Of a stretch of 64,000 nucleotides of DNA, positions 10,150-54,704 are shown one piece after another (position 1 is the stretch's first letter; the number at the start of each line of letters is the position of its first letter). Source of the DNA: Schmidtea nova (lineage: Eukaryota). The stretch is from positions 293,632,001 through 293,696,000 of the forward strand of contig CM097883.1 in assembly GCA_044892505.1 (NCBI GenBank), in the 5' to 3' direction. Under the pieces are notes generated by a model. That model was not told where the DNA came from, ran no database searches, and was given only the letters and a program-made list of their open reading frames with translations. Position numbers and translations under genes: made by a program.

Positions 10150-11932
10150 TAATCAAATTTTTAAGCAAACACCAAATAAACAAAAATAATCAGAAACAAA
10201 TAAGAAAAAAATTAATTAAAACAAAATTAAAATCTAAATTGAACAAGTGCAAAATTAACCACGAAAAAACACAAACATAACTAATTAACAAAATTTTCAT
10301 TAAAAAATTAGGTAAATATAAAAAATTAGAAAATTTTATAATTAATTATCTTATTTTTGACAGTATAAATATAAAAATGTAATAGTAAATTGTGAAAATT
10401 AAAGTAGTTAACATTTATGTAAAAATATAAAATTTTGATAAAAATAAAATTTATTAACCCTATCCTATCTTCTTTACTTTATGTGTCCCGCCCGTTCCAA
10501 TCCTAATAAAATTTCAAAAAAATTCAAAAAAATTTTTTTTTCTGTCGTCATCGTCTTCTTCTTCACTAGAATTATCGTCATAATCGACAGTGCATTGGAA
10601 ATAAATATAAACTTATTTTAAAATATTTCTTTTTTAAATTAAATTTAATTAAACAGAAAGAACATTCTAAAAAACTTTGTTTTAGTGCATCAATTTAGAT
10701 AAATGCTCTGAAAATGGTATAAATGGTATTTGAAAAACTTTCATGAAAAATTGAGGTTCTTTCTGGAAATTTTGAGAATACCTTATTTCAGAAGAAAGAA
10801 AACTCTTCACAGTTAGAAATCAGAATATTTGAGGCGCATCAATTCCCAAATCTTTGGAGAGACAGTATCATTCCACGCATAGAAAGTATGTCTGTTTGAT
10901 ACTTTGCTCGTCCTGTTTAATTCTATTAGACATCGCTCCATGTCCGGGTTGCCTTTTTTAATTTTCTTGACTTTCTGAGTCGCTAACTCGATGTGGTATC
11001 CCAGCTTGTTGTCATGCAGTCTACAGTGTGTACTCATGAATTCGCAAAAGATTCTCCCGAACTATCTAATCCCATGCTGTTAATGCGACTTCGAAGTCTA
11101 GCCTTATACTCAAGTAAAATAGAGAGAATGACTGGAGGTTCATCTGCAATGTTTTTATATTAAAGATTTTGTTTTCCTTAAAGAATTATATTCTTTGTTT
11201 AAAATATATGCTCCTTTAAATATCCAAAACAGGCATGAAATATTAGTTATCCACGATGAAAAGATGAAATGGGAGTTTTGTGATATAACGAAGAATGCAC
11301 AATAAGTGAAATCTAAGATCTGAAATCACAAAAATTTTGATATTTCTTTGTGAATATTTTGTTTGGTAAAATTACTAAGAATCCAACGATTCAACCTTCA
11401 CATTAGTAAAGAAACGAAACTTAAAGAGATGAAATTTCGTTTTATTTAATTTAATAAATCAAAAATGTCATAATAAATAAGACAAAAAACCAAGTTCAAT
11501 ACATGTTTTTGAAATGAAGTTTATAAATGTAGCATGATATAGAAATCCTTCAACAATGAAAAATCCAACGATCTGTGAGAGAGGCTGGAAAAGATATAAA
11601 TCCAAACATACGATCATTATGTTCCCGATATAACAATAATCTTCTATTCAGATAATGAAATTATGAATCTGTAGACATAATGTAGTTTGGTTTCTCGGAA
11701 AAAAACAATAGTGTAATGATTAGAAAGTTTAAGCAAGATTTAAGAAGTGTTAAAGCGTTAATGTGAAAGAGGCCGAAACATCGAAGTGAGCACATATCTT
11801 CTATCAATAGCACTTGAACCCATAGAAATTACTCGATCAATTATAGTTCTGGTAACAATGCTCACATTTTGTGAGCATTTTGCCCAATAGTTACATTACC
11901 AACGTTGCTTGCAGTGGGTAACTACTGGTTAA
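10150..11932. repeat. Unclassified dispersed repeat, copy A (continues at 15128-15190 after the Gypsy insertion)
   Basis: Homologous to 33240-34811 and 54705-54990; includes a decayed minus-strand coding segment (10813-11110). Confidence 0.65.
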
Positions 11933-36497: not shown

Positions 36498-36586
36498 AAC
36501 GATTTTAGGCGGGATTATCGGCCATCGCTTTGACTGAGGTTATCTCGAAATTTTCGGCAAAATTTGACTTACCTAAATGATAACAT

Positions 36587-37575
36587 TGTTGGGTTATTGG
36601 GTCGTTGGTGACTTTATGATTAACAAATTATTACCCTGACTCCAAAACGTGCTCTTTATTGACCCACAATAACAACTGACAACAGGAAATTTTATTGATT
36701 ATCACAAATAACTTCGATTTACAATGAACTGACCAAATTCAAACTACAGCTGATTATACAGTGCTTATTACGACACTATAGTGAAGAATAGCACTAGTGT
36801 ATAATCGATGTTCGAAATCACTCACTGCTGGGGAGTATAACAATTGGTAATTTGACTGGTTGTTTTCTTTATTTGACTTGGATTTACTCTCTGAATTTTA
36901 CTAGCTTTATTTTCTCAAACGCTTGAATAAGCTCCTGCTGCTTATCCCTTAGTTTCTGGTTTCAATTATTGGATTCTCCTTTTGACTCTTCTTTAACTTT
37001 CTCTGGACGTTTTTCTGCTTCCTTTTTAATGAATTTTACTAGCTTTATTTTCTCAAACGCTTTCTCTCAAATATTTTCTCTAACCACTTCTGTATACAAT
37101 GTTGTGTCTTTTTTCTGAGATGCTTCCTCCTTTTATACTTCTTCACTTTGTAGCACTTAAAATTATCAGCTGTTGTTACATTTTTCCAACATGATTTTCC
37201 ATTCATTTTCTCAGCAACGGAGTTATCTTTGACAGCTGTCAAGATAACCTCTGTTTTTCTCCTTTTTGCCGCTTCGGCTTGTTTGTTTTTGCCCACATTA
37301 TCTCTGACCGGTTGTCAAGATAAAATTCTTGTTGTTGTTTTTGTTTTTCCCAACTTTAGAATTTCTTCCTATTTGCACTAGTTAATTAGTGCTGACCTCT
37401 ATTTCGTTTTGCTTGTCTGATTTCTTTTCTTTTGTTTCCCCTTCTCATTTCTCATTCCTTTTTACTTCCGTTTTCTTTCCCAGGCTCCAATCAATCGTGT
37501 CATTCCCCATGACAATTTTCCCCCAAGTAATTTTGTTTATTTATTATATTATTTTGAATTTAGGTATCCTCAACA
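36587..37575 (-). repeat. 3' LTR (989 bp)
   Basis: TGTTGGG...CCTCAACA on +; identical by eye to 51971-52960 except for one C indel near 37285/52670. Confidence 0.98.
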
Positions 37576-37577
37576 TA

Positions 37578-37589
37578 TCTCCCCCCTTT
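37578..37589 (-). promoter_or_regulatory. Polypurine tract AAAGGGGGGAGA
   Basis: Purine run 2 nt upstream of the 3' LTR on the minus strand. Confidence 0.9.
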
Positions 37590-37866
37590 AAAAAAATTCG
37601 TCCTCGAATTAAAATCTTAAGTTATCTTTCGTACAATGCCCCCACTATTATTCTCCAATAAACGCTTCTCTATAATATTCTAATTTATTATTTTTACATA
37701 AATACTAGTTTACGATAATAGGGATAACAATTTTCATACTAACTGTAATAACAATAGCACTACCCATTTTAATAATGATAATTATCGTAGTGATAATAAA
37801 TATACTAATATTACAAATTTAAATTAATTCCTATAATTTTATCATCAGTATTGACAATAGTGATAA

Positions 37867-38295
37867 NNNNNNNNNNNNNNNNNNNNNNNNNNNNNNNNNN
37901 NNNNNNNNNNNNNNNNNNNNNNNNNNNNNNNNNNNNNNNNNNNNNNNNNNNNNNNNNNNNNNNNNNNNNNNNNNNNNNNNNNNNNNNNNNNNNNNNNNNN
38001 NNNNNNNNNNNNNNNNNNNNNNNNNNNNNNNNNNNNNNNNNNNNNNNNNNNNNNNNNNNNNNNNNNNNNNNNNNNNNNNNNNNNNNNNNNNNNNNNNNNN
38101 NNNNNNNNNNNNNNNNNNNNNNNNNNNNNNNNNNNNNNNNNNNNNNNNNNNNNNNNNNNNNNNNNNNNNNNNNNNNNNNNNNNNNNNNNNNNNNNNNNNN
38201 NNNNNNNNNNNNNNNNNNNNNNNNNNNNNNNNNNNNNNNNNNNNNNNNNNNNNNNNNNNNNNNNNNNNNNNNNNNNNNNNNNNNNNNNNNNNNNN
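37867..38295. other. Assembly gap (N run) inside the element's 3' non-coding region
   Basis: N characters flanked by (AAT)n-like low-complexity sequence. Confidence 1.
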
Positions 38296-38369
38296 ATAAT
38301 AATAATAATTTTATTAATTAATTTAGTTATCTTTATAATAAAAATTTTTTTTTTTTTTTTTTTAATTCA

Positions 38370-38580
38370 TTTTGCTATCTTGATGGCACTTATGTGCCTT
38401 CCATTTTTGTTTTTACTTCACCGCTATCCTGACTAGTTGTCAAGATAGCGGAATGTTTTTTTTTGTCCTTTCTGTGCCTGTGGCATTTATTGCCAAAAAA
38501 ATTGCCTCGCCGCTATCTGTCCAGATAGCAATTTAAAATTTGGTTTCGTTGGAATGTCGATTTTATAAAATCGACATTCC
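38370..38580. other. Cluster of five hairpins/palindromes, including a perfect 30-bp palindrome at 38551-38580
   Basis: ggcac-ttat-gtgcc; ccgctatcctgac-tagtt-gtcaagatagcgg; tggca-tttat-tgcca; gctatctg-tc-cagatagc; ggaatgtcgattttataaaatcgacattcc. Confidence 0.85.
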
Positions 38581-40275
38581 TTCGGATATTTCGTCATTAT
38601 TTTATGTTAAAAATAAATGTAAGTTTATTTATTATTTTTTTTTTATATGTATTAATAATAATAAAATAATAATGTTTTATCCGTTATAATAATGGCAATA
38701 TTTTCTTTTAAAAACTATAATTTATAATAATCCCTAACAACAATAACAATTTTAATGATAATTATAATGATGATAATAATAATAATTGAAATAATAATAA
38801 TAAAAATTAAGAAATTTGAATCTAAAATTGATGGTTTATCCGTAGTTATGAATGAAAATCTGAAAAAGCAGTACAAAGGTATGATACTATTAAACATTTC
38901 TAGAATTTGTCAGAACATCTATATAACAATGTTATCAATTTTGCAATTTTGAAGAATGGTTGATAAAATCGCCTTTGAATTCAGGCCGTATTATTTTTTT
39001 TTTGAGCATCCACAAAGTCAGGCGACGTTTTTGGTATCAAAATGTTAAGACATCTGTTCTTATTGAACTTGAACTTTCTATCACAATGTCAATTTTAATT
39101 GGTTTTACAATTTGGATTTTTACGAAAAGAATGGCCAACTCAATGATTGTTTTATATTATTTTGCTCCCACGCTTATACGTATGATTTTATTATTATTTT
39201 TTTTTTTTTAATTTAAATTCATCATCCTCACTACTGTCCACAATTGTAACAATATTAATACTAATGATAATAATAATACTATGATGATGATGATAATAAT
39301 AACAACATTAATAATAATAATAAAATAATAATATTCATAATAATAATAATAATAATAAATCGTAATATAATACTAATAATAATAACACTGATAATAATAA
39401 TGATGATATATAATATGATGGTGAAGATTTATTTTATTCTATTTTATTCTTTCAATTCTATCTTACTTCAATTCTATCCTGCTATTTCATTACCATTTAT
39501 TACCATTATTAATCCTATATTGACTCTGGTTTATAATTTTAAATTATTTCATTTTATTTAAACCTGCATTTGTTTATGATACTTTTTAAATATTTAATTT
39601 TTTTAATTTAATTTAATTTTTGTTTTATTTAATAGTTTTAATTATTTACTACTCTGATTTCATTATTTTGTATATATATATACATATATTTTACTTTATT
39701 ACACTTACCTACCTACCCTTATCATAGGTGTTATTAATTATTTTAAATTATCTCACCAGCTGGTTACGCCTGTGCTGCAGGCTGGTAGGGTAATTGGTTT
39801 TGAGAATCCAAATCCCGAAGTTCGAGATCTGCATTCTGAAAACCCTATAATTATTAAATTTTTTTATTTTTATTTTTATACATTTATTATATTAAATATA
39901 TATATTTTTATTTATACTTAAATACATATTTATATTACCTGAGTGACGTCCTATCGAACTTCTACTACAGGCGTATTAGTATCGTAATTTTTACTATACT
40001 CAATTATATATATTGTCATATATTTTATCATTACTATACAATTAATTAATTGATACTTCTAATTTTTTTTTTCACTGAAATTAATTTTACTCTAGGAACT
40101 ATGGGACTATCAATTTAATTTTTCGCAGAAATTAATATTTACTATTTTATTTTATTTTATTATTTTTTTTTGAATTTTTAATATTTAGATAATTTTGGGA
40201 TATTAATCATATTTTTTTTTTTTTTTTTTTTTTTTTGGGAAAATAAATAACAATAAGACTTTCTTTAATAAAATT

Positions 40276-41691
40276 CTATTTATCAATTACAATTTTGATA
40301 GTTTGGTTTCTTCCTCTATACGTGACGACAACCTTTGTTGCTTCCAATTCCTCACCATTGAACGTGATCATCTTATCGACCACTATTCCTTCTTTTGTTT
40401 GATTTCCTTTTTCAACACTATTTTGTTGCATCATTATTTTGTCCATTTCCACAATTGCATATTTAAATAAATCAAGTTTTTTCTCAACCATCATTTTCGC
40501 AGTTTTCTCACGAGCAATATGCATGTGTTCCACCATGTGAATGTCTTGTTCCATTTGCTGAACTTCTGCTTTCCTCTTCTCTTTTGGTTCCTCCATCTGC
40601 TCACTGGTTGTTGGAGCCTTTCTTTTCCTATACTCTTCTAACGAATATTTTCTTTTGCTGGTTGTTTCAGCACACTCTACATCATCCTGCCATTCATTTT
40701 CTATGGCCAAATAAATTCTTCTAATTGCATCAGTGTCTTCTAATGCCGTATGATTCCCTTTTTGCATTCTGATGCCACATATTTCTTCGGCTACTATTGA
40801 CAATTTATACCATTGCCCGTTCCTTGTGACTCTTCTTTTTGTCAATGCTCGAGCTGCCGCCAAATCGCGAATACCCCATAGATCCCTTGTCTGTACTCCA
40901 CTGTACAATAGTTCGCTTTGGAGATCATGTCCAACCAAGATTTTCCTTGCCGTTAATTGCTGAATTTTCCTCTGACTCTTGTATTGATCATCTTGATTTC
41001 TTGACATCTTCTCTGTGATGCCGTGAATTTGGGTAACGTAATTTTTTAGCTTTTCTCTGGGGGTTATTAATGAGTTATACAATATTCTTCCGTCATAGTT
41101 TATTAAACAAATAGACAGCGGAACCATCTTGTTTTGCTCACTTACGCCATATTCCGCGTCCATGAACATAATATTTTTTCTAATTTCTTCTTTTGTCATT
41201 TGTTTTCTCAAAAATGATTTTCGGTGCTTTAACATTTCTTCGGTTATCGGGAGTAACCTATTTTCTTCTTCATTGGTCATAATTTGTTCTAATGCCGGGA
41301 TTGTTGGAGCTGGTCCTCGGCATTCTAAAACAATGCAAGCCGTTCCATTGGCTGCTCGCATCTTCTTATGCCATATTTCTTTTGATATCTTCCATGATGA
41401 ATTAGTTTCCAATGTTTGTAGAACCGTTGCATCATTCTCTAAAATTTCTACTCTTCCTTTAAAAACATGAACCTCCCATGTCTCTTCGTTTCTTCTTATT
41501 AACACTTCTGAAAATTTCGTATTGGATTTCCATTCCAATTCCACCATACATATTCTCATTTCTTCATTCCCTAACCTTACCCAATTAGGAATTTTCAAAT
41601 TTTCTTCTATTACGATAACTTTGTCTGTATAGCTTCTTCTTTCTTGATAATATTTCCCGTATAATCTTGCTGGTTTGTTGATTTTTTCCAT
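40276..41691 (-). CDS. ORF2: 471-aa protein with a possible cupin-like N-terminus, a REX4/ISG20-like DEDDh 3'-5' exonuclease (aa ~174-333) and a charged C-terminus
   Basis: ExoI FMDAEYG (D178, E180), TQIHGIT, ILVGHDLQSE (E260 at the ExoII position), ExoIII HTALEDT (H314, D319). Motif order and spacing match REX4/ISG20. Confidence 0.85.
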   Translation of the reverse strand: MEKINKPARLYGKYYQERRSYTDKVIVIEENLKIPNWVRLGNEEMRICMVELEWKSNTKFSEVLIRRNEETWEVHVFKGRVEILENDATVLQTLETNSSWKISKEIWHKKMRAANGTACIVLECRGPAPTIPALEQIMTNEEENRLLPITEEMLKHRKSFLRKQMTKEEIRKNIMFMDAEYGVSEQNKMVPLSICLINYDGRILYNSLITPREKLKNYVTQIHGITEKMSRNQDDQYKSQRKIQQLTARKILVGHDLQSELLYSGVQTRDLWGIRDLAAARALTKRRVTRNGQWYKLSIVAEEICGIRMQKGNHTALEDTDAIRRIYLAIENEWQDDVECAETTSKRKYSLEEYRKRKAPTTSEQMEEPKEKRKAEVQQMEQDIHMVEHMHIAREKTAKMMVEKKLDLFKYAIVEMDKIMMQQNSVEKGNQTKEGIVVDKMITFNGEELEATKVVVTYRGRNQTIKIVIDK

Positions 41692-41971
41692 TCTTCCTTT
41701 AGATTTAATTTTGATCTTTTTTTTTTTTTTTTTTTTTTTCTTTAAAAATTTTCCAAGTCAAACTCTGAAAACAACCGCCATCTTTATATCCAAAAATTCT
41801 CTCCCCCTACAGTGTGATTATTCGACCAATCAAATTACATCAATACAATTTAAATTTTAACAACATATTTTACAACAAAAGATTATCAATTGACTATTAA
41901 AGAATCATTAACTAAAGAAATATAAGGGAAATAATACTGTATATTGTCATTACATGCAAAATAGTAGCTTA

Positions 41972-44900
41972 CTACACCCTTGATTCCAACCACATTGATA
42001 TCTGCGGCTTAGAATATTGAAAATCACAATTAGAATTGTTTCTTTTGTCAGTTCGTGAAATGAGGATAAAGCAAACGAGCAAGATCACTCTTTGTCTTGC
42101 CCTTATGATACATACAGAGAACATATCAACACAATTGTTAGTGAATGAATTTTCTTTATAGTTTAATGAAAAGTTTTCGATTTTTATACATGAAAGAGTT
42201 AATGGTAGAGTCAGATTGTGATCAAGGGTTTCTTTAGAGGGTTGATCGAGAACGAAATAAATCTGTCTGTCTTTAATGCAAATAGTTTGCCATCGGTCTG
42301 GATTGGTTTTCCCTTTGCAGTATTGGTTTGCTATAAGGAGTTTGCTTGTTTGTGATTCGGTTCCTGAGTTCTGAGTACTGACTCTCGCTCTGTTTCGGTG
42401 TTCTTTTCCCTCGACCTCAGCTTTATATGAAACGATTATTGTAGTATCACAATTTTCAATTTGAACTTGATTCGTTTTATTCCAGTATATCATCTCAATT
42501 TGAACATTTCTTTCAAACAATTGATTGTTTGTATAAATTCCTTTATTACGAAGTGGTTTTTTGTAATTGTTCATTGACAGATTAAGAGTGAGAACTACTT
42601 TCATTAAGTATACGTCTATTTTCTCTAAAGATGGTAATTTATTGACCGCATCTGGTATATCCATTTTTATTCCAACTGTGTTCGTTACCATATTTATTAA
42701 AACTGTCGTTATGAATAAAACTTTATTCATATAACTCAATGGAGTTGGATTTTTCTGGAACTTTTGCCGGATTTCTATTTCATCATTTGTTTTCTTTTGT
42801 TTATTTCGTAGCTGATGTTCCAGTTCAGGCACTTTCTTACATCTATTGGCATGAACTACAATTGTTTCTGCTTTTTTATTATTAATTGGTCGCAATTTTA
42901 GATTTGTTGCAGTCGCATCACAGACTGTATACGGACCTTTGAATGGTCTTTGTAATTTTGTTGAGAGTCCCTTTGTTGGCTCTGGCTTATTTAGATAAAC
43001 TAGGTCGCCAATTTTTATTCCGTGCTCATGCGCTTTTTTATCATAACTTTCTTTATATTGCTCCTGTCGATATTTTATTTTTAATCCGGCTTGAGTCCAA
43101 GCGGATTGTAAACGTTCTTGCAGAGCAACTTTATAATTTGGAATCTCTAAATATTGGGAAGTTGGTGATTGGAACTCTAAATCGATCGGCATATTATTTC
43201 GTCTTAGGTACATAAGATAAAAGGGCGTTTCTCCCGTACTCTCATTTACTGAATTTCGATAGGCATATAAGCATGGTCTAATGAACAGATCCCAGTCTTT
43301 TTGCTTTCGATTCACATAGGATGAGATCATATTAATTAATGTACCATTAAATCTTTCCACTAACCCATCTGTTTGTGGATGATATGGTGATGTGCTCAAT
43401 TTATATATACCAAATAATTCTGTAATAGATTTAAACAGATCACTCTGAAAGTTTGTCCCTTGATCTGTTAGCAATTTCTTTGGAACGCCATATCTAAATA
43501 TGATTTCTTCAACAAATATTTGTGCAACAGTTTCTGCCTTTTGGTTTGGCATAGCAAACGCTTCTGGCCATTTGGTTAAATAATCACAGAATACCAAAAT
43601 GTATTTATTTCCATTCGTTGTCTCGGGTAAAGGCCCGATAATATCCATTGCTGAAAATTCCATTGGCGCTGCTGGTATTGGCATTGGTTTTAGAGGAACC
43701 TTTATTTTCTTTCCAGTATTTCTTCGAGTCAGGCATATTTTGCAAGTGTTGCACCATTGCTTTACATCCTGTTCCATTGTATTCCAGAAATATTTTAGTT
43801 TTATTCGCGACAGCGTTTTTCTTGCTGACAAATGTCCTCCCAATGCCCCGTCATGGTACTGTAACAATAATGTATTTCGATGTATTATTGGAACTACTAT
43901 TAACAATTCATCATTTTTAATATATTTTAATATACCTCTGTGAATAACATATTTGTGTTTTTCCTCGATTAATTGTTTCAATTCTTTATCTTTTCTCATT
44001 ATTACTGTATGTTTTATTATTTGTTTCAGCTCCTCATCCATTTCTTGATCTCTCTGTAGCTCTGCCATATTATTTGCTGCTTTAACTACTGCAAATACAG
44101 TATCTCTTAAATTTATTTCTTCCTGGTTATTATTAATTTCCCCATTTGGAATTCTAGACAAGGTATCAGCATTAGCATTTGATTTTCCTGTTCGATATTT
44201 GATTTCAAAGTCATATTCTTGCAAGGCTAACGACCACCTAATTAATTTACTTGCTGCATCTCGATGCTTCATTAACCATTGTAATGGATTATGGTCTGTA
44301 TAGACAATGAATTTTCGGCCAACTAAGTACTGTCGAAATGTTGTTATGCCATATACTAGAGCAAGAGTTTCTTTTTCGATTGTTGAATAGTTTTTTTCAT
44401 GTGGTTTCAATGATCGACTAGCATATGCGATTACATGATCTTTTTCTCCTTCAACCTTTTGTCCTAATACCGCTCCCAACGCAAAACAGCTTGCGTCCGT
44501 CATTAACATAAATGTCTTTGTGAAATCAGGACCTCGTAATATTGGATTCATCATTAACTTTTGTTTGAGTATTTCGAAAACATCCTGCTGAGCTTTGCCC
44601 CACACGAATTTTGTGGTTTTCTTTAATAGCATCGTTAATGGTTGAGCAAAATGTGCAAAGTTTCTAATAAATTTTCTGTAATAGCTTGCTAACCCGAGAA
44701 ATTGTCTAATATCATCAACATTTTTTGGAGTTGGATAATCTTTAATTTTCTTAACATTTTCTGGATTTGGTTGTAGACCTTTTCGTGAAATGATATGTCC
44801 AATATACACCACCTCTGACTTTCCCCATTCACATTTTGATGGTTTGATTTTAAGATTTGCTTCTCTGAGCCGTTTAAATACTGTTTCCACATCTCTCATG

Positions 44901-47900
44901 TGCTCTTCGAAATTACCTGAGAAGATTATAATATCATCAATATATACCAAGGCGTGTGGAATATCTCGCAGCACAAAATTCATTCCTCTTTGAAATGTCG
45001 CTGGTGCACCTGTTAAACCAAATGGTAAAACATTAAATTCATACAAACCTTTTCCATCTGAAAACGCTGTTTTCCCTTTATCTGTCTCTTTAACTTTGAA
45101 TTGATTGTAGCCTTTGTTTAAATCAATAACAGTAAAATATTGAGCTTCTCCCATTTTGTCAAACATTTCCTGAGGAACCGGAATGGGATACGTATCCTTT
45201 CTTGTCACTTGATTCAGTTTTCGATAGTCAATACAAAATCTCAGTTCACCGTCTTTCTTTTTGACTACAACAATAGAGGAAGAAAATGGTGAAAAACTGT
45301 CTCTAATAATATGGAATTCTTTCATAGCCTTTATTTGTCTATCGCTTTCGTCTTGATGCGCATACGGAATTCTGTATGGTCGTAATTTAATTGGAGTTTC
45401 ATCAATTAATGGAATTTCATGTTCAATTATATGAGTTACTCCCAAATCATACTCATGTTTCGCAAAAATATCTTGATATTTTCTCAACAATTTTGTAAAT
45501 GTTTGTGTTTGCTCTTGCGTCAACTCTGCACTGTCAACTTGGGGTTCTTTGTATATTTTAATATTTTTTGGTAATCTTTTATTATTGATTTTTAGGATTT
45601 TTGTTAGCTTTCCTAATTTCGTTTTTGGTTTAAATGACACTTCTTTGTCGCTATTGTTAGTGATGCGAACAGGAATTAATTGATCTTGAACTTTCACTAC
45701 TTCGTCGCATATTGGAGTATCATATTTGGCAATTAAATTCTCACTTGGTTGAAATATAAATTCATCGTCTGGAACTCCCATTGTATTCACATAACAAATA
45801 ACTTCACTCTGAGGTGGTACTCTTAACGTTTGATTTAGAAACACATCTCCCGTTTCATGAATAACTTTTCCTGTTTTTCCTACAATTAGATTTCCGGTTT
45901 TCAAATCAAGAGAGACTCCTTCCAATTGCTCCAACACATCCATCCCTACCAAACACATTACTGGGCTATCTTTCATTATTAGCGCATTATGAACAATTTC
46001 TTTATTTCCAATATTGAATTTTACTCTGATCTGTCCAATGATATTTAATTTGTTTTTCGTCATTGATCGTACAACTTCTTCTGTGCTTTTCATTCGTGCT
46101 CTTTCCCCTGAATTTAATAATTTATCTGATAATATTGTATTGCTTGAGCCTGAATCTATTAATGCTTCGACTCTATGTTTATTCACTTGTATCCATATTC
46201 TTGGCTGTCTTCCTTTATTTCCAATTGTCATTAATGCATAATTTCCTGGTAATCCCAGCATGTTTCTCCTTTCAATTTCCGCACTAGTTGGTGCGATTTG
46301 CTCATTTGTCAATTCAATGTTTTCAACTGGTCTCATTTCTTTTAACTTCTCTACTGGATATATTGGTGCTGTTGGTAGAAAAGTTTTTGGAATGCATAAT
46401 CGACTGAATGTGTCTGTTTCACTTGTTTGTGGTACCGATTGTAATAAATTCAAAGATTTAGATTTTTCTCGTATATCATTAATTTTAATTTTACTGTTTT
46501 TATAATAATATATTGGAGGTACTTTTACTTTACCCCCATTCCCACTCTCGCTGTCCGAACTCGAATCAATGTCTCTTCCGTCATTATTTAGTCGTGACTT
46601 GACTTTCCCCATCTCTTTATATTGATGCTTTGTAATTACAAATCTTGCCAGACATGGAATACATCCGATAATCAGTTTCCAGGACCATCCCGAAATAACA
46701 TATAGCTGATGAGTAGTTAGTATTTGAGATATTATCACTTTAATCACCACGAACATAACATAAATTCCAATTAATCCTGCACATGCTTGTCCCAAAAACA
46801 TGAATTTCCCCCATATCTTTTTCATCGTATTGTACGTTGCTTTCTTATAATGATCTGGTGTTAGTAAATAATCATAATTTACTTTGCCTTCACCACTTGG
46901 TAATATAGTATCAATCATTTCAGTAATGACTCGTTCTTTCTTTGATGGAAATAGTAGATTTCTTCGGGCTTCTTCAACATCTTCTTGAGAATACAACTCA
47001 GTTTGTGCTAATTTGTCCAATGATGTAAAATTTATTAAATATTCAAGTTTTGTTAATTCTAATTTTTCTGGATTTCTTACTCCTTTATGATCTGGTAATG
47101 ATATCCACGAATCTGATGTTAGTCGATATAATGGTGCGAGCAATCGGTTACATTTTAAAAGTTTAGGTTTCGCGTCTTCTTCCAACAATATTCGAGTTAT
47201 TGGCTCCATGAATCTCAATTTACCATTAACACTTACTGGCAATTCATTGGTACATTGCTCGTACTTTATAATTTGCACGGGAATCTCGTTGCATTTATAG
47301 CTATACAATGCTTCTCCAAATACTCTTGCAAACACACCGTTTTCTGATATTAACATAGGTGCTACCAAGTTTGGATTTGTGACTGCCATCGCCATTCTGT
47401 TCCGTAGTATTTCTTTATTCAACTTACAGTCGTTTAATATCATTTCTCTGTAAATATTTTCCATAATACTTTGACTGTAGTGGAACAAATAGTCTATTTT
47501 GTTATTAAAATAATTTGTCAATTTGATATCCGTACTATGTATTTGGACTTGAGCTTCCTCGACTCTTTTCTTGGATACATAAATTCCTTTATAATTGGTC
47601 TCATACACCGTTTGACCACATTTATTTACCACATTTTTTCGAATAAATCTCATACCGTCATCTAATAAAGTTGACATCAAAACAACTGGAGTTTTTCTGG
47701 TTCTCAATGGGGTAATTCTGATTGTCATGTCCGGTTTTGCCTCCACATTCAAATTTTCCGGTCTTTCTCTCAACTGTTCTCCACTCATTTCATTAAAACT
47801 CATTGTTTTCAAATGTATTAAATTACATAGATTTGTCTTAACTTCGTACACCAAAATTGATTCTCCTGTTTGACAGCTAGCCTGCTTCATATTGCAGAAT

Positions 47901-50900
47901 GGATGCGTTTGTAACTTGCCTGTGTCGTCATCAAAAGCTCCTTGGAATTCTCTCAATTCCGTCAAATACTCTTCCATCACAACAATTTGATCAATAACTT
48001 CTCCATTCATTTTGTACGGTTCTCCTTTACAATCCCCATTAGCCTTTATTGTTCCTTTTTCGATAATTGTTTCTCGTATAGCATGATTTAATTTAGCTTT
48101 CAATTTAACCTCGGGGCTAATTTTCACTTCCCCTGTTTGAAACGCAGCCATGCAATTTTCTGGGTTTACATCAACTGGCCTTGGGATTGAATACATTTTA
48201 ATTAGTGATGTGTGACTCCATTTGCCACAATAAAACACAAAGCTCGTTCTCTTTACAATGCACTCTCTTACTACCGCATGTCTAAAGCCTGATTCTTGGT
48301 ATACATGATACTTTACATCATTTTCAACTGTTAAACTCATTGGGTGTGCATCAGAACATTCTGTCATGTCCACCATGGAATAAATCTTTCCCATTTTGGT
48401 TTGAGAACAATCGTACGCAATTAAAGATGTTGTTTGCGTCGTAATCGCACATAATATTATGATCATAAACATTATAAATGGAAGTTTCATAGGTTTACCT
48501 CTCGGTATTCCTTCGTAACTTTCTCTCTTTTCGACTGATGATTCTGTTTTTTGTTTAACTAATTTCTCCCAGCCTCCAATTTCCTTTATCCATTTGCCCA
48601 CATGCTTATACAATACTTTGCTCGCCTTTTTGATTACTTCATCTCGTTTTTCCATATTTAAATAATCGTGTGTCCCGATTTCTAACAAAATATAACTCGT
48701 AATTGTCAATACTAAATCTCTATCCATTTCTCCTGTCATCATATTGGTTATCACTCCATCATCACAGAATTCCTTGTTGTCTTTTACATATCTCAAGACC
48801 ACATAAAGTCTCTTTTTCAACTTTTTTGCAATTTTTCTCACATATAATTCTACTTGTGTTTTCTCTGCTGCTTCGCCATATAATTCATTTGCCAGCGCAC
48901 GTACAACCTTTTCAGTCTCTTTTAATTCCTTCTGACCTCTCTCACCTTGGAGTCTCTGTATTATTTCACATCTCACCTCGTATAAATCCTTGCGTTGTCT
49001 TTCCTCCGTAATATTATCAATCTCCATTTCTGTCATATACGCTTCATTTTTAACTTCCGTTTTTATTATACTTCCATCAATTCTCTGCTCAGTTTCCTGT
49101 TCCTCTCCATGTTCTGTCATTTCTTGTTCCTCTGATATTTCATCCTCATTATCCATTGTTTCACTGCCGAACTCTGGTAATTCAATTTTATAACCTTTTT
49201 CTACTTCATCTGTATCCACTTGTTTCACTGCAATTATATCATTAATAAAATTTTGATCCGTAAGAAATCTATCTTCGTTACGCTTTCGTGGCATACATCC
49301 ACAATCAAATAAATATTCATCATCGTCTAGCTCAAAACCTTTATACGTTAGCACAATTATTCCATCATTGCCCATGATTTCTGCTGTTCTTCGACGAATT
49401 TTATTCACTTTCGTATACCAATGTTCATCCGTATATTCTACTCCTTGACCATTTATTTTTAACAGTACTACGAATGGCTCATTATAAATCCCTTCTTCCC
49501 TGAATTCTTGACCAAATTTTTGAATAAGAGTTTTTATTGTTTTACCATATTCGTTTTCCGCATTCATATAGGGTCTAACACAGTCTAGAATTTTTAACTT
49601 GTCTTCTACTTTGAGTTCTAAATTCAAAATATTGTTTAATTTATCAATAATGTCACCTGTGTTTCCTTTAAGCAATGCTTCCATTAGTTCAAATCTGATT
49701 TCGTCAGAGTCATTTGTTACTGTTTTTTCCTTGGCGATCATATTCGTCATTTGCATTTCATTTTCACCGCCAGGAATTAATCCATAATCTACCAAGAATT
49801 CGCCATCCTCTAATACTTGATCCATAAATTTAAGTTCCACCGCCCAACTTTCACACTTGTGCATTACTTCTCTTTTTAGCTCGCGTACTTTCTCGTATGC
49901 ATCGATTTTATAGTTGGATTTTGTACCATCTGGAGCATTCATTTGGATAAATATAGGATCTAACCATTTATTTTTCCGTAGATATTGCCCAAATATTCTC
50001 ATAAAATCTTTGAATACATCTCGTTTTTCCACACTTGCTGCATAACATTCTGCACAAAGTTTAATAACAGTTTTAATTTTTGTCAGACTTAAAGGTATTT
50101 TAGTTAGCCTCGTAAATAATTCTGTTATTTTCTGGGAATTTACGTCTGGTTCCGCAACTAATTTTCTGATTTTGGCAATAAATACAGTACTCCTTTCACT
50201 TTGTATGTCGGCTTTAGCTTTATTGATTTGTACTTTATCTGATTCTGACTCGCTTTCGCTCAACTCTTTCCTCGTCATCATGTGGGTATCTGTTTCTTCA
50301 TCCGATTCAAATTTGGCTATCAATTTATTCAGTTTTTGGTTCAATTGTTTAACATCGCTTTCGATCTTTTCTCTAAAACCATCTTGCTGAACATAGGCTA
50401 TATTATCATTCGATGGATTTTCATCTTGAAATCTTATTGTTCGCTTTAATATTGGCCTTTGAAATTTATTCGTATTTCTTGGACAGGATCTTGCAATATG
50501 TCCATAATTTCTACACAAATGGCATTGAATTTGTCCGTTCAAATTTACATTGTCTCTCTGTGGTGAAGGTGAAGTTGAGGGTGATCTTGATCTTGAAAAA
50601 CAATTTCTGGAAACATGTCCTTTTCTACCGCAGCGATAACATTGCACTTCATTAACATTGGATTTTATATCAGGAACTGTTCTCCGAAAATTGGTTCCCC
50701 TATCGTTGGTACGATAATCTTGGGTTATTCTTCTGGGTGTACTATCGGAATTATTTTTGAACCAACACTGGTTTGCATAATGGCCAATCTTCTTGCAATT
50801 TTCACACTGGATCACTCTGGATCTCTCAGCGCCTTGGAAATTACGGCTTGGTCTATTTATATTTAACTCGGTTCTCCATTTGGGTGATGGACTTTTTGAT

Positions 50901-51574
50901 CGCTGGAATCTATTTTCTGGCTCCCAATTGTTTTGGGTTGGTGTAATTGATCTTTCCCTTTGAGCTGGAATAATCGCGAACACATCAGATTTGTTTTTGG
51001 TGCTCTTCAAATTCAATTCGATTTTCATTGCCTTTTTTACTAGTTCATCAAAATTATCATAATCTACACAGCATAATGCGGTTTTTATTTCTTTGTTTAT
51101 TCCTGACAAAAATTGGTCTTGGATTAATTCTTGCATTTGTTGGGCTAGGCCTGGTTGTTTTGAGTCTTCTTCAAATGATTTACTTGCGAGGGTTGACAAA
51201 TGATACGCAAATTCGCTCACTGTTTCATTTGGATTTTGAACTCTACTATAAAACTTTTGACGCATTAATCTTTTGATATCTCCTCCGATAAGTTTTGCAG
51301 CTAACGCATCTTTCAACTTTGCCCAATCATTACCAATTAATTTTTTATCAATCTGTTGCCAAACCTCTCTAGCTGCTCCTTTAAGATATAAAGGTAATCT
51401 CTGAATCATAATCGCTTGAGACCATCCGTACGCCGTTGCATACATGTAGTAATCACTCATAAAATCTACAAAAATAACCGGATCTCCTCCATATTGTTCC
51501 ACAGGTAATCTTTGACAACTTGCAAAATCATTATTTTCTTTAATAACTGATACTGGCAAATCTTCACTACTCAT
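41972..51574 (-). CDS. ~3200-aa Gag-Ubl-Ubl-Bcl2-Env-PR-RT-RH-IN polyprotein (first ATG at 51574; the ORF track starts at GTG 51619)
   Basis: Three CX2CX4HX4C knuckles; ALIDSG protease (46148-56); YIDD RT (44933-44); TDAS...EKETLA...TDH RNase H; HHCC and D,D,E integrase; GPY motif. No stops or frameshifts. Confidence 0.97.
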   Translation of the reverse strand: MSSEDLPVSVIKENNDFASCQRLPVEQYGGDPVIFVDFMSDYYMYATAYGWSQAIMIQRLPLYLKGAAREVWQQIDKKLIGNDWAKLKDALAAKLIGGDIKRLMRQKFYSRVQNPNETVSEFAYHLSTLASKSFEEDSKQPGLAQQMQELIQDQFLSGINKEIKTALCCVDYDNFDELVKKAMKIELNLKSTKNKSDVFAIIPAQRERSITPTQNNWEPENRFQRSKSPSPKWRTELNINRPSRNFQGAERSRVIQCENCKKIGHYANQCWFKNNSDSTPRRITQDYRTNDRGTNFRRTVPDIKSNVNEVQCYRCGRKGHVSRNCFSRSRSPSTSPSPQRDNVNLNGQIQCHLCRNYGHIARSCPRNTNKFQRPILKRTIRFQDENPSNDNIAYVQQDGFREKIESDVKQLNQKLNKLIAKFESDEETDTHMMTRKELSESESESDKVQINKAKADIQSERSTVFIAKIRKLVAEPDVNSQKITELFTRLTKIPLSLTKIKTVIKLCAECYAASVEKRDVFKDFMRIFGQYLRKNKWLDPIFIQMNAPDGTKSNYKIDAYEKVRELKREVMHKCESWAVELKFMDQVLEDGEFLVDYGLIPGGENEMQMTNMIAKEKTVTNDSDEIRFELMEALLKGNTGDIIDKLNNILNLELKVEDKLKILDCVRPYMNAENEYGKTIKTLIQKFGQEFREEGIYNEPFVVLLKINGQGVEYTDEHWYTKVNKIRRRTAEIMGNDGIIVLTYKGFELDDDEYLFDCGCMPRKRNEDRFLTDQNFINDIIAVKQVDTDEVEKGYKIELPEFGSETMDNEDEISEEQEMTEHGEEQETEQRIDGSIIKTEVKNEAYMTEMEIDNITEERQRKDLYEVRCEIIQRLQGERGQKELKETEKVVRALANELYGEAAEKTQVELYVRKIAKKLKKRLYVVLRYVKDNKEFCDDGVITNMMTGEMDRDLVLTITSYILLEIGTHDYLNMEKRDEVIKKASKVLYKHVGKWIKEIGGWEKLVKQKTESSVEKRESYEGIPRGKPMKLPFIMFMIIILCAITTQTTSLIAYDCSQTKMGKIYSMVDMTECSDAHPMSLTVENDVKYHVYQESGFRHAVVRECIVKRTSFVFYCGKWSHTSLIKMYSIPRPVDVNPENCMAAFQTGEVKISPEVKLKAKLNHAIRETIIEKGTIKANGDCKGEPYKMNGEVIDQIVVMEEYLTELREFQGAFDDDTGKLQTHPFCNMKQASCQTGESILVYEVKTNLCNLIHLKTMSFNEMSGEQLRERPENLNVEAKPDMTIRITPLRTRKTPVVLMSTLLDDGMRFIRKNVVNKCGQTVYETNYKGIYVSKKRVEEAQVQIHSTDIKLTNYFNNKIDYLFHYSQSIMENIYREMILNDCKLNKEILRNRMAMAVTNPNLVAPMLISENGVFARVFGEALYSYKCNEIPVQIIKYEQCTNELPVSVNGKLRFMEPITRILLEEDAKPKLLKCNRLLAPLYRLTSDSWISLPDHKGVRNPEKLELTKLEYLINFTSLDKLAQTELYSQEDVEEARRNLLFPSKKERVITEMIDTILPSGEGKVNYDYLLTPDHYKKATYNTMKKIWGKFMFLGQACAGLIGIYVMFVVIKVIISQILTTHQLYVISGWSWKLIIGCIPCLARFVITKHQYKEMGKVKSRLNNDGRDIDSSSDSESGNGGKVKVPPIYYYKNSKIKINDIREKSKSLNLLQSVPQTSETDTFSRLCIPKTFLPTAPIYPVEKLKEMRPVENIELTNEQIAPTSAEIERRNMLGLPGNYALMTIGNKGRQPRIWIQVNKHRVEALIDSGSSNTILSDKLLNSGERARMKSTEEVVRSMTKNKLNIIGQIRVKFNIGNKEIVHNALIMKDSPVMCLVGMDVLEQLEGVSLDLKTGNLIVGKTGKVIHETGDVFLNQTLRVPPQSEVICYVNTMGVPDDEFIFQPSENLIAKYDTPICDEVVKVQDQLIPVRITNNSDKEVSFKPKTKLGKLTKILKINNKRLPKNIKIYKEPQVDSAELTQEQTQTFTKLLRKYQDIFAKHEYDLGVTHIIEHEIPLIDETPIKLRPYRIPYAHQDESDRQIKAMKEFHIIRDSFSPFSSSIVVVKKKDGELRFCIDYRKLNQVTRKDTYPIPVPQEMFDKMGEAQYFTVIDLNKGYNQFKVKETDKGKTAFSDGKGLYEFNVLPFGLTGAPATFQRGMNFVLRDIPHALVYIDDIIIFSGNFEEHMRDVETVFKRLREANLKIKPSKCEWGKSEVVYIGHIISRKGLQPNPENVKKIKDYPTPKNVDDIRQFLGLASYYRKFIRNFAHFAQPLTMLLKKTTKFVWGKAQQDVFEILKQKLMMNPILRGPDFTKTFMLMTDASCFALGAVLGQKVEGEKDHVIAYASRSLKPHEKNYSTIEKETLALVYGITTFRQYLVGRKFIVYTDHNPLQWLMKHRDAASKLIRWSLALQEYDFEIKYRTGKSNANADTLSRIPNGEINNNQEEINLRDTVFAVVKAANNMAELQRDQEMDEELKQIIKHTVIMRKDKELKQLIEEKHKYVIHRGILKYIKNDELLIVVPIIHRNTLLLQYHDGALGGHLSARKTLSRIKLKYFWNTMEQDVKQWCNTCKICLTRRNTGKKIKVPLKPMPIPAAPMEFSAMDIIGPLPETTNGNKYILVFCDYLTKWPEAFAMPNQKAETVAQIFVEEIIFRYGVPKKLLTDQGTNFQSDLFKSITELFGIYKLSTSPYHPQTDGLVERFNGTLINMISSYVNRKQKDWDLFIRPCLYAYRNSVNESTGETPFYLMYLRRNNMPIDLEFQSPTSQYLEIPNYKVALQERLQSAWTQAGLKIKYRQEQYKESYDKKAHEHGIKIGDLVYLNKPEPTKGLSTKLQRPFKGPYTVCDATATNLKLRPINNKKAETIVVHANRCKKVPELEHQLRNKQKKTNDEIEIRQKFQKNPTPLSYMNKVLFITTVLINMVTNTVGIKMDIPDAVNKLPSLEKIDVYLMKVVLTLNLSMNNYKKPLRNKGIYTNNQLFERNVQIEMIYWNKTNQVQIENCDTTIIVSYKAEVEGKEHRNRARVSTQNSGTESQTSKLLIANQYCKGKTNPDRWQTICIKDRQIYFVLDQPSKETLDHNLTLPLTLSCIKIENFSLNYKENSFTNNCVDMFSVCIIRARQRVILLVCFILISRTDKRNNSNCDFQYSKPQISMWLESRV
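46620..48424 (-). other. In-frame glycoprotein domain, chuvirus-like / herpes gB-like class III fusogen
   Basis: Begins LIAYDC after a hydrophobic signal-like segment; EC..KRT...FYCGKWSH matches the chuviral C..R.IYYCGMHSH pattern; C-terminal WGKFMFLG..AGLIGIY...GWSW membrane region. Confidence 0.8.
48551..48997 (-). other. In-frame Bcl-2-like domain
   Basis: BH2-like WIKEIGGWEKLV (compare Bcl-xL WIQENGGWDTFV), BH3-like VVRALANEL, BH1-to-BH2 spacing preserved but NWGR absent. Confidence 0.7.
49280..49957 (-). other. Two in-frame ubiquitin-like domains (aa ~555-625 and ~715-780)
   Basis: ELKFMDQVLEDGEFLVDYGL and VLTYKGFELDDDEYLFDCGC compared with ubiquitin [20 protein letters not shown]. Confidence 0.75.
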
Positions 51575-51947: not shown

Positions 51948-51965
51948 ATCACGTCGGGCTCACCA
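51948..51965 (-). promoter_or_regulatory. Primer binding site, tRNA-Trp (TGGTGAGCCCGACGTGAT)
   Basis: 17/18 match to the tRNA-Trp PBS TGGTGACCCCGACGTGAT, 5 nt from the 5' LTR. Confidence 0.92.
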
Positions 51966-51970
51966 AATAA

Positions 51971-52960
51971 TGTTGGGTTATTGGGTCGTTGGTGACTTTA
52001 TGATTAACAAATTATTACCCTGACTCCAAAACGTGCTCTTTATTGACCCACAATAACAACTGACAACAGGAAATTTTATTGATTATCACAAATAACTTCG
52101 ATTTACAATGAACTGACCAAATTCAAACTACAGCTGATTATACAGTGCTTATTACGACACTATAGTGAAGAATAGCACTAGTGTATAATCGATGTTCGAA
52201 ATCACTCACTGCTGGGGAGTATAACAATTGGTAATTTGACTGGTTGTTTTCTTTATTTGACTTGGATTTACTCTCTGAATTTTACTAGCTTTATTTTCTC
52301 AAACGCTTGAATAAGCTCCTGCTGCTTATCCCTTAGTTTCTGGTTTCAATTATTGGATTCTCCTTTTGACTCTTCTTTAACTTTCTCTGGACGTTTTTCT
52401 GCTTCCTTTTTAATGAATTTTACTAGCTTTATTTTCTCAAACGCTTTCTCTCAAATATTTTCTCTAACCACTTCTGTATACAATGTTGTGTCTTTTTTCT
52501 GAGATGCTTCCTCCTTTTATACTTCTTCACTTTGTAGCACTTAAAATTATCAGCTGTTGTTACATTTTTCCAACATGATTTTCCATTCATTTTCTCAGCA
52601 ACGGAGTTATCTTTGACAGCTGTCAAGATAACCTCTGTTTTTCTCCTTTTTGCCGCTTCGGCTTGTTTGCTTTTTGCCCACATTATCTCTGACCGGTTGT
52701 CAAGATAAAATTCTTGTTGTTGTTTTTGTTTTTCCCAACTTTAGAATTTCTTCCTATTTGCACTAGTTAATTAGTGCTGACCTCTATTTCGTTTTGCTTG
52801 TCTGATTTCTTTTCTTTTGTTTCCCCTTCTCATTTCTCATTCCTTTTTACTTCCGTTTTCTTTCCCAGGCTCCAATCAATCGTGTCATTCCCCATGACAA
52901 TTTTCCCCCAAGTAATTTTGTTTATTTATTATATTATTTTGAATTTAGGTATCCTCAACA
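51971..52960 (-). repeat. 5' LTR (990 bp)
   Basis: Near-identical partner of 36587-37575; adjacent to the PBS. Confidence 0.98.
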
Positions 52961-54704
52961 ACATTAAACTTTATTAGGTCTTTCATACGCTCTGACCATC
53001 ATACTGCCGCGTTTATTTGGACAGTCCTTTTGACTCAAACTTCTTATTTCACCATCAATCGCATTCATTACCAGTTCATCATTCATAGATTTTATTAATG
53101 AGTGGATTTATCATCAACCTACTGTCCAATCATTGTTACGGCTTTTGTTGTTGAGCTACGAATTTGTAGTCACTCATCGCTACACATATCGAACGTGGTG
53201 GTTATATCATCGATCAAACTCATTTAATTGTAGCTGCGGGTATGATCATTTACTTATTATCAATCGCCATTCACTACTTATGAAATCAGTCACTCACTCT
53301 CTAAACACATTCATTCGGCAGCACATTAAACAAGCTTCTACATCATCCGACCTCAGAAAATTCTCTGATTGAATCCTCGTCATGGTTATTTGTCAATTTG
53401 ATGCACTGAAACATTCCAATTCATGACGTTCGACTCTCGCCAGCCTCATTTCATAACGACTTTACATTTTCGGGGTGAAATCATGCTATTAAGGCCCTTG
53501 CAGGGTTATGTTGTCCTCTCATCCTTGGTATGGATATATCCCTTCCCGTTCCATTAGCGCTGTAACGCCGCATCAGCCATCACCGCCAGGTGATGCGCTG
53601 AGAGGCCCAGTTTTCGCCCTTCAAATCCTACGACCTCCGGGTTGCGACCTTATAGATTTTAAACATGAGTAATACATGAGGGTTTAACACTGACATGATA
53701 TCAAAAACAAATCACCAACGTACTTTTTATTTCGTTTGATTCTACAGATTTACTTGATACAACACAAGACTTCACTGATAAAAATGACATCACATTCTGA
53801 ATTTGATCACTACTTATGTATTGTTTTGGCCTCGCCTTCTGAACAATCAGAATTCAGTACGGTTGCCTATTTGTCAGTCATTTATTTTTTATTGTTTGTT
53901 TTTCTTTCATTAAACCGGTGAGTTTTGGTGGTTACTCATTTGCTTATGACTTTATGACTTTTTTATTTTAGTTCTCTACATACTATCCGAGCGGTCCACC
54001 CCGGCATTTGCTGCGTTCAGCAATTTCATTTTACTCTGGTAATTCTATTGGCAGATTTTATTATTCATCGCTTTTCTGTTTCAGGCATCAGTGGTTTTCA
54101 ATTACTCAATGGTAATTTATTATATATTGTGCTTTCTTTAGTGCTGACATTTTGACAGCTCTTGTTCTCGCCTGATTGGTTTTGCTCGATCATCACGCGG
54201 CTATCTCATCTCGGTCTAGTGGTAAGTTCTGTATTGTTATTACTGTTTTAGTATTATGTTATTACTTTCAGGTTTCGCCGTGCTTCGATGATTATCTGTC
54301 TATCGCTGATGGTTTGCAATTTATTTTATTTAATTTTATTACTATTTTCCTATTTAATTTGTACTTTCTTTTAGATTATTTACGATTCGCTGGGCCCAAC
54401 AAGTATAACAAACGTACTCACCCATGACGATCCAACTAGGGAATTGATTATCCAAATTGGTGGTGATCAACAATGGCATTTTATTGATTTTCTTTTCTTT
54501 TATATACTCTTACTAGCGGGATTCTCTCAAATTTTCTTTTTAGTTACAGCTTTAGCGAATCTTGGAAAATTCTGAGATTCTCACTATTCTTCACCATAAT
54601 TTTCACTTCATTAGATGCGTAAAATATCATATTCTCGTGCAATATTAATTATATATCTAAATAATAAAATTATTATTTTTTTAAATATAATCTTTAGTTT
54701 TTCA

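What the first reader, a model, noticed from the sequence alone, without database searches (positions are those of the whole stretch)
40693..41172. REX4/ISG20-like DEDDh exonuclease in the 3' accessory ORF, where env normally sits
Seen: D178-x-E180, GHDLQSE (Glu where the family usually has Asp), H314 and D319. Known: ISG20 is an antiviral RNase of this family; arenavirus NP and coronavirus ExoN use DEDD nucleases to remove dsRNA or proofread. Inference: it could trim element RNA or dsRNA, interfere with small-RNA silencing, restrict competing elements, or aid fidelity of a long genome. The D-to-E change may alter activity.
Basis: partly seen in the sequence, partly recalled or inferred. Interest (0 to 1): 0.75.

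Follow-up and report, generated by a model that had tools for sequence, protein, structure and literature searches.

The report
Jumping gene carries its own exonuclease
A retrovirus-like jumping gene keeps its envelope gene and also carries a conserved extra gene for a two-part protein with an intact-looking nucleic-acid-trimming site, which likely helps the element get past its host's RNA defences.

Summary
The exonuclease is real. ORF2 (40276-41691, minus strand, 471 aa) lies 3' of pol in a young 16.4-kb Ty3/gypsy LTR element. It does not replace env: a gB-type fusion protein sits inside ORF1 (GAG-ENV-POL), as in catalogued planarian errantiviruses. ORF2 joins a cupin/AlkB-shaped domain lacking the usual metal triad to an ISG20/REX4-fold nuclease (Z 18.3). 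D178, E180, E260, H314 and D319 are kept in 62 of 64 sampled copies. E260 is a family trait (25 Glu, 19 Asp among 44 intact homologues), as in coronavirus DEEDh ExoN. The domain is under purifying selection, follows the RT tree and forms a clade apart from host REXO4. Sister elements keep catalytically dead versions, also under selection. Some copies spread after losing the nuclease, and an RT-less derivative retains it. That fits a trans-acting nucleic-acid binder or trimmer, probably against host RNA surveillance, and not a proofreader. Activity and expression are untested. Rotifer LTR elements with DEDDy exonucleases are a precedent; I found no paper describing this fusion. The scan noted a dead version in another genome before.

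The parts
51971..52960 (-). 5' LTR (990 bp, TG...CA ends)
   Evidence: 0 substitutions in 989 aligned bases, 1 indel against the 3' LTR
51948..51965 (-). Primer-binding-site-like stretch starting TGG, 5 nt inside the 5' LTR end; matching tRNA not tested
41972..51574 (-). ORF1, 3200 aa, GAG-ENV-POL polyprotein
50420..51574 (-). Gag: Retrotrans_gag and three CCHC knuckles
   Evidence: E 9.7e-8; zf-CCHC E 4.5e-12, 3 stretches
49778..49954 (-). Ubiquitin-like stretch (weak, below cut-off)
   Evidence: E 0.008
48569..48646 (-). Bcl-2-like C-terminal motif (weak, below cut-off)
   Evidence: E 0.047
46598..48499 (-). Env: hydrophobic leader (aa 1026), gB/class III-type fusion glycoprotein, transmembrane segment (aa 1591)
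   Evidence: (PF24664, E 9.4e-89)
43175..46210 (-). Protease, RT, RNase H, integrase
41975..42910 (-). Fast-evolving pol tail with a C-terminal hydrophobic segment; kept with ORF2 in the RT-less derivative
41765..41771 (-). Predicted 3' splice acceptor (TTTTCAG), 74 nt before the ORF2 ATG with no ATG between
   Evidence: sequence; sister families; inferred, no RNA data
40276..41691 (-). ORF2, 471-aa accessory protein, no transmembrane segment
41302..41691 (-). ORF2 N-terminal double-stranded beta-helix domain (cupin/AlkB-shaped), aa 1-130; H75 and E123 conserved, no HxD...H triad
   Evidence: (pLDDT 93)
40687..41178 (-). ISG20/REX4-fold exonuclease domain, aa 172-335; D178 (41158-41160), E180 (41152-41154), E260 (40912-40914), H314 (40750-40752), D319 (40735-40737)
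40279..40686 (-). Low-confidence linker and short C-terminal beta-strand tail, aa 336-471
37576..40275 (-). Long AT-rich 3' non-coding region (holds an N run at 37867-38295)
37578..37589 (-). Polypurine tract
36587..37575 (-). 3' LTR; 4-bp target-site duplication ACAT at 36583-36586 and 52961-52964

Best explanation
ORF2 is a conserved accessory gene of an envelope-carrying Ty3/gypsy element, encoding a cupin/AlkB-shaped domain fused to an ISG20/REX4-fold domain that is predicted to be an active DEEDh 3'-5' exonuclease and likely acts in trans to shield the element from host RNA surveillance. Shown: the ORF, both predicted folds, the conserved catalytic set, purifying selection, co-inheritance with RT, dead sister versions, and both kinds of deletion derivative. 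Inferred: (1) it is made from a spliced subgenomic RNA as a soluble protein outside the Gag-Env-Pol polyprotein; (2) its core, oldest job is to grip single-stranded nucleic-acid 3' ends, with the metal-less beta-helix domain as a binding or targeting module; (3) in this lineage it also trims them, most likely small-RNA guides or their precursors, or stray element RNA and cDNA that would trigger silencing, while dead versions act as sequestering decoys.
For: Catalytic set kept in 62 of 64 sampled domain hits from families 51-100% identical and in 44 of 56 fully aligned element-clade domains. Exonuclease pN/pS 0.19-0.45 between families with pS near saturation. Shared variants 9N:26S against singletons 55N:47S, p 0.0056. 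RT-RH and exonuclease trees agree at their supported nodes for 9 elements. The same ORF follows gypsy pol in metagenome contigs whose pol is 48-49% identical. Dead versions sit after pol in GAG-ENV-POL relatives, keep P211, G273 and R275 (17, 18 and 18 of 18) and are under selection (L150-L149 pN/pS 0.06 at pS 0.21), so the binding fold outlasts catalysis. Trans action: 5 copies share one deletion of the nuclease yet lie at separate places; an RT-less, env-less derivative keeps ORF2 (17 of 20 sampled integrase-less hits plus 2). ORF2 diverges faster than RT and IN (54% against 87-91% identity) and travels with weak Bcl-2-like and ubiquitin-like cargo. Planarian PIWI silences Burro-type elements (PMC8532177, passages).
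Against: No activity, substrate or expression data. Nothing links the protein to small RNAs directly; that step rests on analogy. ISG20's two 2'-OH contacts (M14, R53; PMC9157404, passages) are Y181 and V219 here and are not conserved, so RNA over DNA preference is open. The same Asp-to-Glu change cut Klenow exonuclease activity by over 96% as cited in PMC7654266. One recent pair gave pN/pS 1.36 [0.24-2.30] on few changes, family A alone gave p 0.06, and selection inside the RT-less derivative is not shown (4N:3S shared; 10 of 19 ORFs fully open against 20 of 23 autonomous). The window family has only a weak AG next to its ATG. The 64 hits were top-scoring, so biased to intact copies.
Confidence: 0.45

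Rival explanations
1. Housekeeping for the element's own cycle: the protein trims or protects 3' ends of element RNA, the tRNA primer or cDNA during particle assembly or reverse transcription, with no role against host defence.
For: REX4/ISG20-clan and Pan2 enzymes are its nearest folds; strict co-inheritance with RT; proposed for rotifer DEDDy ORF3s (PMC5408684, passages).
Against: Dead versions in sister elements and nuclease-less copies that spread show catalysis is not needed in cis; most gypsy elements lack such a gene (general knowledge).
Confidence: 0.22
2. ISG20-like restriction factor: it degrades or blocks RNA of competing retroelements or viruses, benefiting the carrier element and perhaps the host.
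For: ISG20 is the top sequence and fold match; many sister families compete in one genome.
Against: The clade is separate from ISG20/REXO4-like cellular proteins; nearly all sister families carry the gene themselves; dead versions are retained.
Confidence: 0.13
3. The window's version is itself a weak or inactive pseudo-nuclease that only binds nucleic acid or a host protein, E260 being a step toward the dead state.
For: Dead relatives exist and are conserved; in the quick tree the dead rows nest among Glu-bearing rows, with weak support of 81; Klenow precedent.
Against: The other four catalytic residues stay invariant across Glu-bearing proteins only about 25-30% identical; nsp14 is active with Glu.
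Confidence: 0.12
4. ExoN-like proofreading for the reverse transcriptase, supporting a long genome.
For: DEEDh signature as in nsp14; long elements.
Against: Separate ORF, not in Pol; kept by an RT-less derivative; dead in sister elements with the same layout; closer to ISG20 (Z 18.3) than to ExoN (Z 10.3).
Confidence: 0.05
5. A recently captured host gene fragment riding along neutrally.
For: Singleton changes in young copies look neutral.
Against: AU test rejects grouping with the host's intron-containing REXO4 (p 1.9e-88); purifying selection; 51 clusters at E up to 1e-30.
Confidence: 0.03

Closest known systems
HSV/gB-type GAG-ENV-POL errantiviruses of Platyhelminthes, e.g. Smed_errantivirus_1-6 (Chary and Hayashi, PMC13524379; passages, outline and term searches of 7 supplements)
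   Same: Ty3/gypsy element with gB-type env between gag and pol; the env row printed for Smed_errantivirus_1 reads near-collinear with ORF1 by eye, identity not computed.
   Different: The paper and its 7 supplements have 0 occurrences of 'exonuclease' or 'DEDD'; the 3' ORF is not described there.
Burro/GYPSM1 giant planarian LTR elements (PMC6431247, section 7 read in full)
   Same: Gag with three CCHC knuckles, ubiquitin-like and BCL2-like stretches, env in frame between gag and pol, accessory ORFs.
   Different: 16.4 kb against over 30 kb; no BIR, MATH or ankyrin hit in ORF1; that section names no exonuclease.
DEDDy-type ORF3 of bdelloid rotifer Juno/Vesta LTR elements and Terminons (PMC5408684, passages)
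   Same: Element-encoded 3'-5' exonuclease downstream of pol, with DEDD changed to DEED; activity also undemonstrated.
   Different: Those are RNase D-like DEDDy and stand in place of env; this is DEDDh of the ISG20/REX4 clan, coexists with env, carries a beta-helix domain, shows purifying selection and has dead paralogues.
Human ISG20, ISG20L2 and REXO4/REX4
   Same: Closest sequence and fold, motif layout DxE, GH..., H...D.
   Different: Glu in motif II, no M14/R53 equivalents, extra domains, separate clade.
Coronavirus nsp14 ExoN (DEEDh)
   Same: Glu in motif II with His in motif III; mobile-genome-encoded nuclease.
   Different: More distant fold match (Z 10.3), no zinc-finger motifs evident, not part of the replicase polyprotein.

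Membership tests
DEDD superfamily, DEDDh group | DnaQ-like fold | tested here: met
   Z 18.3 to ISG20, rmsd 2.5, 159 aligned
DEDD superfamily, DEDDh group | Exo I D-x-E and Exo III H-x4-D | tested here: met
   D178, E180, H314, D319
DEDD superfamily, DEDDh group | Acidic residue in Exo II | tested here: met
   E260, the DEEDh variant; 19 of 44 intact homologues have Asp
DEDD superfamily, DEDDh group | Two-metal 3'-5' exonuclease activity | not testable with these tools
   needs an assay
ISG20 / REXO4 orthologous groups | Falls within the cellular clade | tested here: not met
   22 element rows and 23 cellular rows are the two sides of one branch, 100/99; AU p 1.9e-88 against grouping with host REXO4
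ISG20 / REXO4 orthologous groups | ISG20 2'-OH contacts M14 and R53 | tested here: not met
   Y181 and V219; Arg not among the five commonest residues of 49 intact rows
Rotifer retroelement DEDDy ORF3 | Tyr as fifth residue, RNase D-like | tested here: not met
   H314; PF00929 hit, no PF01612 hit
Rotifer retroelement DEDDy ORF3 | Common origin by phylogeny | not tested
   rotifer sequences not held
HSV/gB-type GAG-ENV-POL errantiviruses | gB-type env between gag and pol in a Ty3/gypsy LTR element | tested here: met
   order Gag, fusion protein, PR, RT, RH, IN
HSV/gB-type GAG-ENV-POL errantiviruses | Infectious particles | not testable with these tools
   none
Burro/GYPSM1 | Ubiquitin-like and BCL2-like domains before env | tested here: inconclusive
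   Pfam E 0.008 and 0.047, both under cut-off
Burro/GYPSM1 | Giant size with BIR/MATH/ankyrin cargo | tested here: not met
   16,374 bp; no such hits in ORF1
AlkB/2OG-Fe(II) oxygenases and metal cupins (N-terminal domain) | Double-stranded beta-helix fold | tested here: met
   pLDDT 93; the listed top rows are cupin, pirin or AlkB-type, best Z 9.5, so no single family stands out
AlkB/2OG-Fe(II) oxygenases and metal cupins (N-terminal domain) | HxD/E...H metal triad | tested here: not met
   only H75 (41 of 44) and E123 (37 of 44) are well conserved; a two-ligand site is not excluded
Nidovirus ExoN | Part of the replicase polyprotein | tested here: not met
   separate ORF after the ORF1 stop

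The most novel reading that the evidence does not exclude
An old, widespread and undescribed family of retroelement accessory proteins suppresses small-RNA silencing: a metal-less AlkB/cupin domain reads the target, the nuclease destroys guides in some lineages and only sequesters them in others, some elements carry a live and a dead copy in tandem, and RT-less parasites spread by carrying the suppressor.
Probability: 0.3. Interest if true: 0.85.

Novelty: new variant of a known kind. Interest (0 to 1): 0.58.

Why it matters
Element-encoded counter-defence against piRNA or siRNA silencing is little known in animals (general knowledge). This gives a concrete, high-copy, selectively maintained candidate in an element family already catalogued in a model planarian, where RNAi and small-RNA sequencing are routine. 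It is also a second, independent capture of a DEDD nuclease by LTR elements, from a different clan than the rotifer case, and offers natural live, dead and deleted versions for comparison.

Tried and rejected
No RNA holder was listed; the four runs laid were contigs of unknown kind and showed presence only, so expression and splicing are untested. No relative in viral contigs (35 pattern matches, 0 confirmed). The protein atlas gave no usable hit for aa 1-170. No copy made from a spliced ORF2 RNA was seen among 20 integrase-less hits; 17 were the RT-less derivative. Searches with an Asp-type homologue returned only known families among the 150 scored. L109 is a cellular-type REX4 protein, not an element member. 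A homodimer prediction was not obtained, so oligomer state is open. The pol tail shows no match to the N-terminal profile. 'Exonuclease replaces env' rejected. 'Recent capture of host REXO4' rejected. 'E260 is a copy-specific lesion' rejected. Grohme 2018 and Malik 2000 were not held; my recollection that some nematode Cer/Tas elements carry an exonuclease domain is unverified (searches found no support). Arenavirus NP was not among the 50 listed fold matches, which excludes nothing.

Full report
Observation. The finding lies in ORF2, 40276-41691 on the minus strand, 471 aa. Pfam RNase_T hits aa 176-323 above cut-off; ISG20 and ISG20L2 are the best solved-structure matches and E260 aligns with ISG20's motif II Asp. 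The AF2 model (8-sequence alignment, mean pLDDT 64) matches ISG20 at Z 18.3, Pan2 at 14.8 and coronavirus ExoN at 10.3.

The element. LTRs at 36587-37575 and 51971-52960 differ by one indel and no substitution, with a 4-bp target duplication, so the insertion is very young. ORF1 (3200 aa) holds Gag with three CCHC knuckles, weak ubiquitin-like and Bcl-2-like stretches, a gB-type fusion protein (E 9.4e-89), then PR, RT, RNase H and IN. Env is therefore present. This GAG-ENV-POL layout is published for flatworm errantiviruses (PMC13524379, passages) and for Burro (PMC6431247, section 7). The env row of Smed_errantivirus_1 printed resembles ORF1 closely by eye; I infer a planarian-type host from this kinship only.

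A second domain. Residues 1-130 fold with pLDDT 93 on a 44-sequence alignment into a double-stranded beta-helix; matches are cupins, pirins and AlkB-type oxygenases at Z up to 9.5, none standing out. Only H75 and E123 are well conserved, so the usual metal triad is missing. ORF2 has no hydrophobic segment.

Conservation in the genome. The domain search scored 150 of 2122 candidates and returned groups near 100%, 74% and 55% identity; a sister family gave 150 of 150 scored at 97% or more. Of 64 domain hits in fetched loci, 62 keep all catalytic residues; one has E260K and one D319A. These were top-scoring hits. Of 51 integrase hits at 98% or more, 44 have the exonuclease 2.4-2.9 kb downstream; 2 are truncated and 5 share one deletion that removes the nuclease domain and keeps the start of ORF2. 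Three of those five have different 3' flanks.

Selection. Between families the exonuclease has pN/pS 0.19-0.45 with pS near saturation; RT and IN are at 0.07-0.11 in the window-L031 pair. One recent pair gave 1.36 with a wide interval. Variants shared between copies are 9N:26S against 55N:47S for singletons, p 0.0056 pooled over three families; family A alone p 0.06.

Wider family and origin. A profile search found 51 clusters at E up to 1e-30. Metagenome contigs L105 and L106/L107 show the ORF downstream of gypsy pol 48-49% identical to ORF1; L108 has no pol on its short contig, and the unnamed proteins have no context, so their element origin is inferred from the tree. In a quick tree of 121 rows (7 dropped as duplicates or partial, cellular rows thinned) the element-type rows split from cellular REX4/ISG20-like rows at SH-aLRT 99. 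A careful tree of 45 rows that I chose after seeing it gave 100/99, and the AU test rejected grouping with the host's intron-containing REXO4. RT-RH and exonuclease trees of 9 elements agree at supported nodes. The capture is old and inherited with pol.

The D-to-E change. Among 62 element-clade rows, 56 align at all sites: 44 intact (25 Glu, 19 Asp) and 12 degenerate. Coronavirus nsp14 is a DEEDh enzyme whose motif II residue alternates between E and D among nidoviruses, and the E191D enzyme stays active; the equivalent change in Klenow cut activity by over 96% (PMC7654266, passages). Rotifer element exonucleases also read DEED. An active site is likely but unproven.

Dead and orphaned versions. 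Sister GAG-ENV-POL elements in the same genome, RT 53-55% identical, carry the same two-domain ORF after pol with the catalytic residues lost, still under selection (pN/pS 0.06 at pS 0.21) and keeping P211, G273 and R275. L106 has a dead and an intact-motif paralogue in tandem. A roughly 11-kb derivative with the same LTRs, its own diverged Gag and no env, PR, RT or IN keeps the pol tail and ORF2; 10 of 19 such copies have ORF2 fully open, and selection within that lineage is not shown.

Expression. A pyrimidine-AG lies 0-9 nt before the ORF2 ATG in four sister families and in L106 and L108, not clearly in L105 or the dead L106 ORF; the window family has TTTTCAG 74 nt upstream. A T-rich YAG precedes 11 of 450 background ATGs. 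The four families are not independent. Splicing is inferred; the lead came partly from earlier scan notes.

Mechanism. Persistence of dead versions points to binding as the core role and catalysis as optional. Spread of nuclease-less copies and retention by an RT-less element point to action in trans. Faster divergence than pol and host-manipulating cargo point to conflict with the host, and planarian PIWI is known to silence such elements. I therefore favour shielding from RNA surveillance (0.45) over self-processing (0.22), restriction of competitors (0.13), a binding-only pseudo-enzyme (0.12), proofreading (0.05) and neutral cargo (0.03). That the gene is a real, selected accessory gene is far surer than any of these roles.

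Novelty. Exonuclease ORFs in LTR elements are known from rotifers (PMC5408684, passages) and called well known in an opinion piece (PMC6338049, passages), but those are DEDDy. Ten searches, of which I saw listings and read passages of eight papers, found no description of an ISG20/REX4-clan enzyme fused to a beta-helix domain in such elements. Grohme 2018, Malik 2000, Ustyantsev 2017 and Repbase were not seen and may bear on this. The scan itself noted a dead member in another genome. Verdict: new variant of a known kind, interest 0.58.

Noticed in passing
L178-L187, e.g. L180:3064-9936: Abundant ~11-kb non-autonomous derivative: family A LTRs, a 488-aa Gag only 47% identical to ORF1's capsid, no env/PR/RT/IN, keeps pol tail and ORF2.
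   Followed up: partly
L091, L092, L094, L095, L097: Subfamily with one shared deletion that removes the exonuclease domain while keeping pol and the start of ORF2.
   Followed up: partly
L106:7268-10371 and 10906-11517: Giant gypsy-type contig with ankyrin repeats and a second protease in pol, tandem dead and intact exonuclease paralogues, then a ubiquitin-like ORF.
   Followed up: partly
window 41975-42910: Pol tail has a signal-peptide-like stretch near aa 2945 (by eye) and a C-terminal hydrophobic segment; it is a separate frame in L151, so possibly a small membrane protein of its own.
   Followed up: partly
window 48500-50370: Between Gag and Env: two apparent helical-plus-ubiquitin-like repeats (second by eye) and a Bcl-2-like domain running straight into the Env leader.
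   Followed up: partly
L034:835-8733: Internally deleted copy in which ORF1 is fused in frame to ORF2 (2633 aa).
   Followed up: no
L146:6316-9999: Dead-type cupin-exonuclease at the start of a 1228+ aa frame flanked by long AAT-type repeats, no pol nearby in the stretches read; possibly domesticated.
   Followed up: no
window 40687-41178 against L037, L046, L047: Synonymous divergence is higher in the exonuclease (pS 0.72-0.74) than in its flanks (0.28-0.50), hinting at recombination around the domain.
   Followed up: partly
L051:1162-2346: Host ERI1-like gene (SAP plus DEDDh) in a single open frame.
   Followed up: no
window 1585-2690: Array of diverged 39-nt repeats, probably coding on the minus strand.
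   Followed up: no
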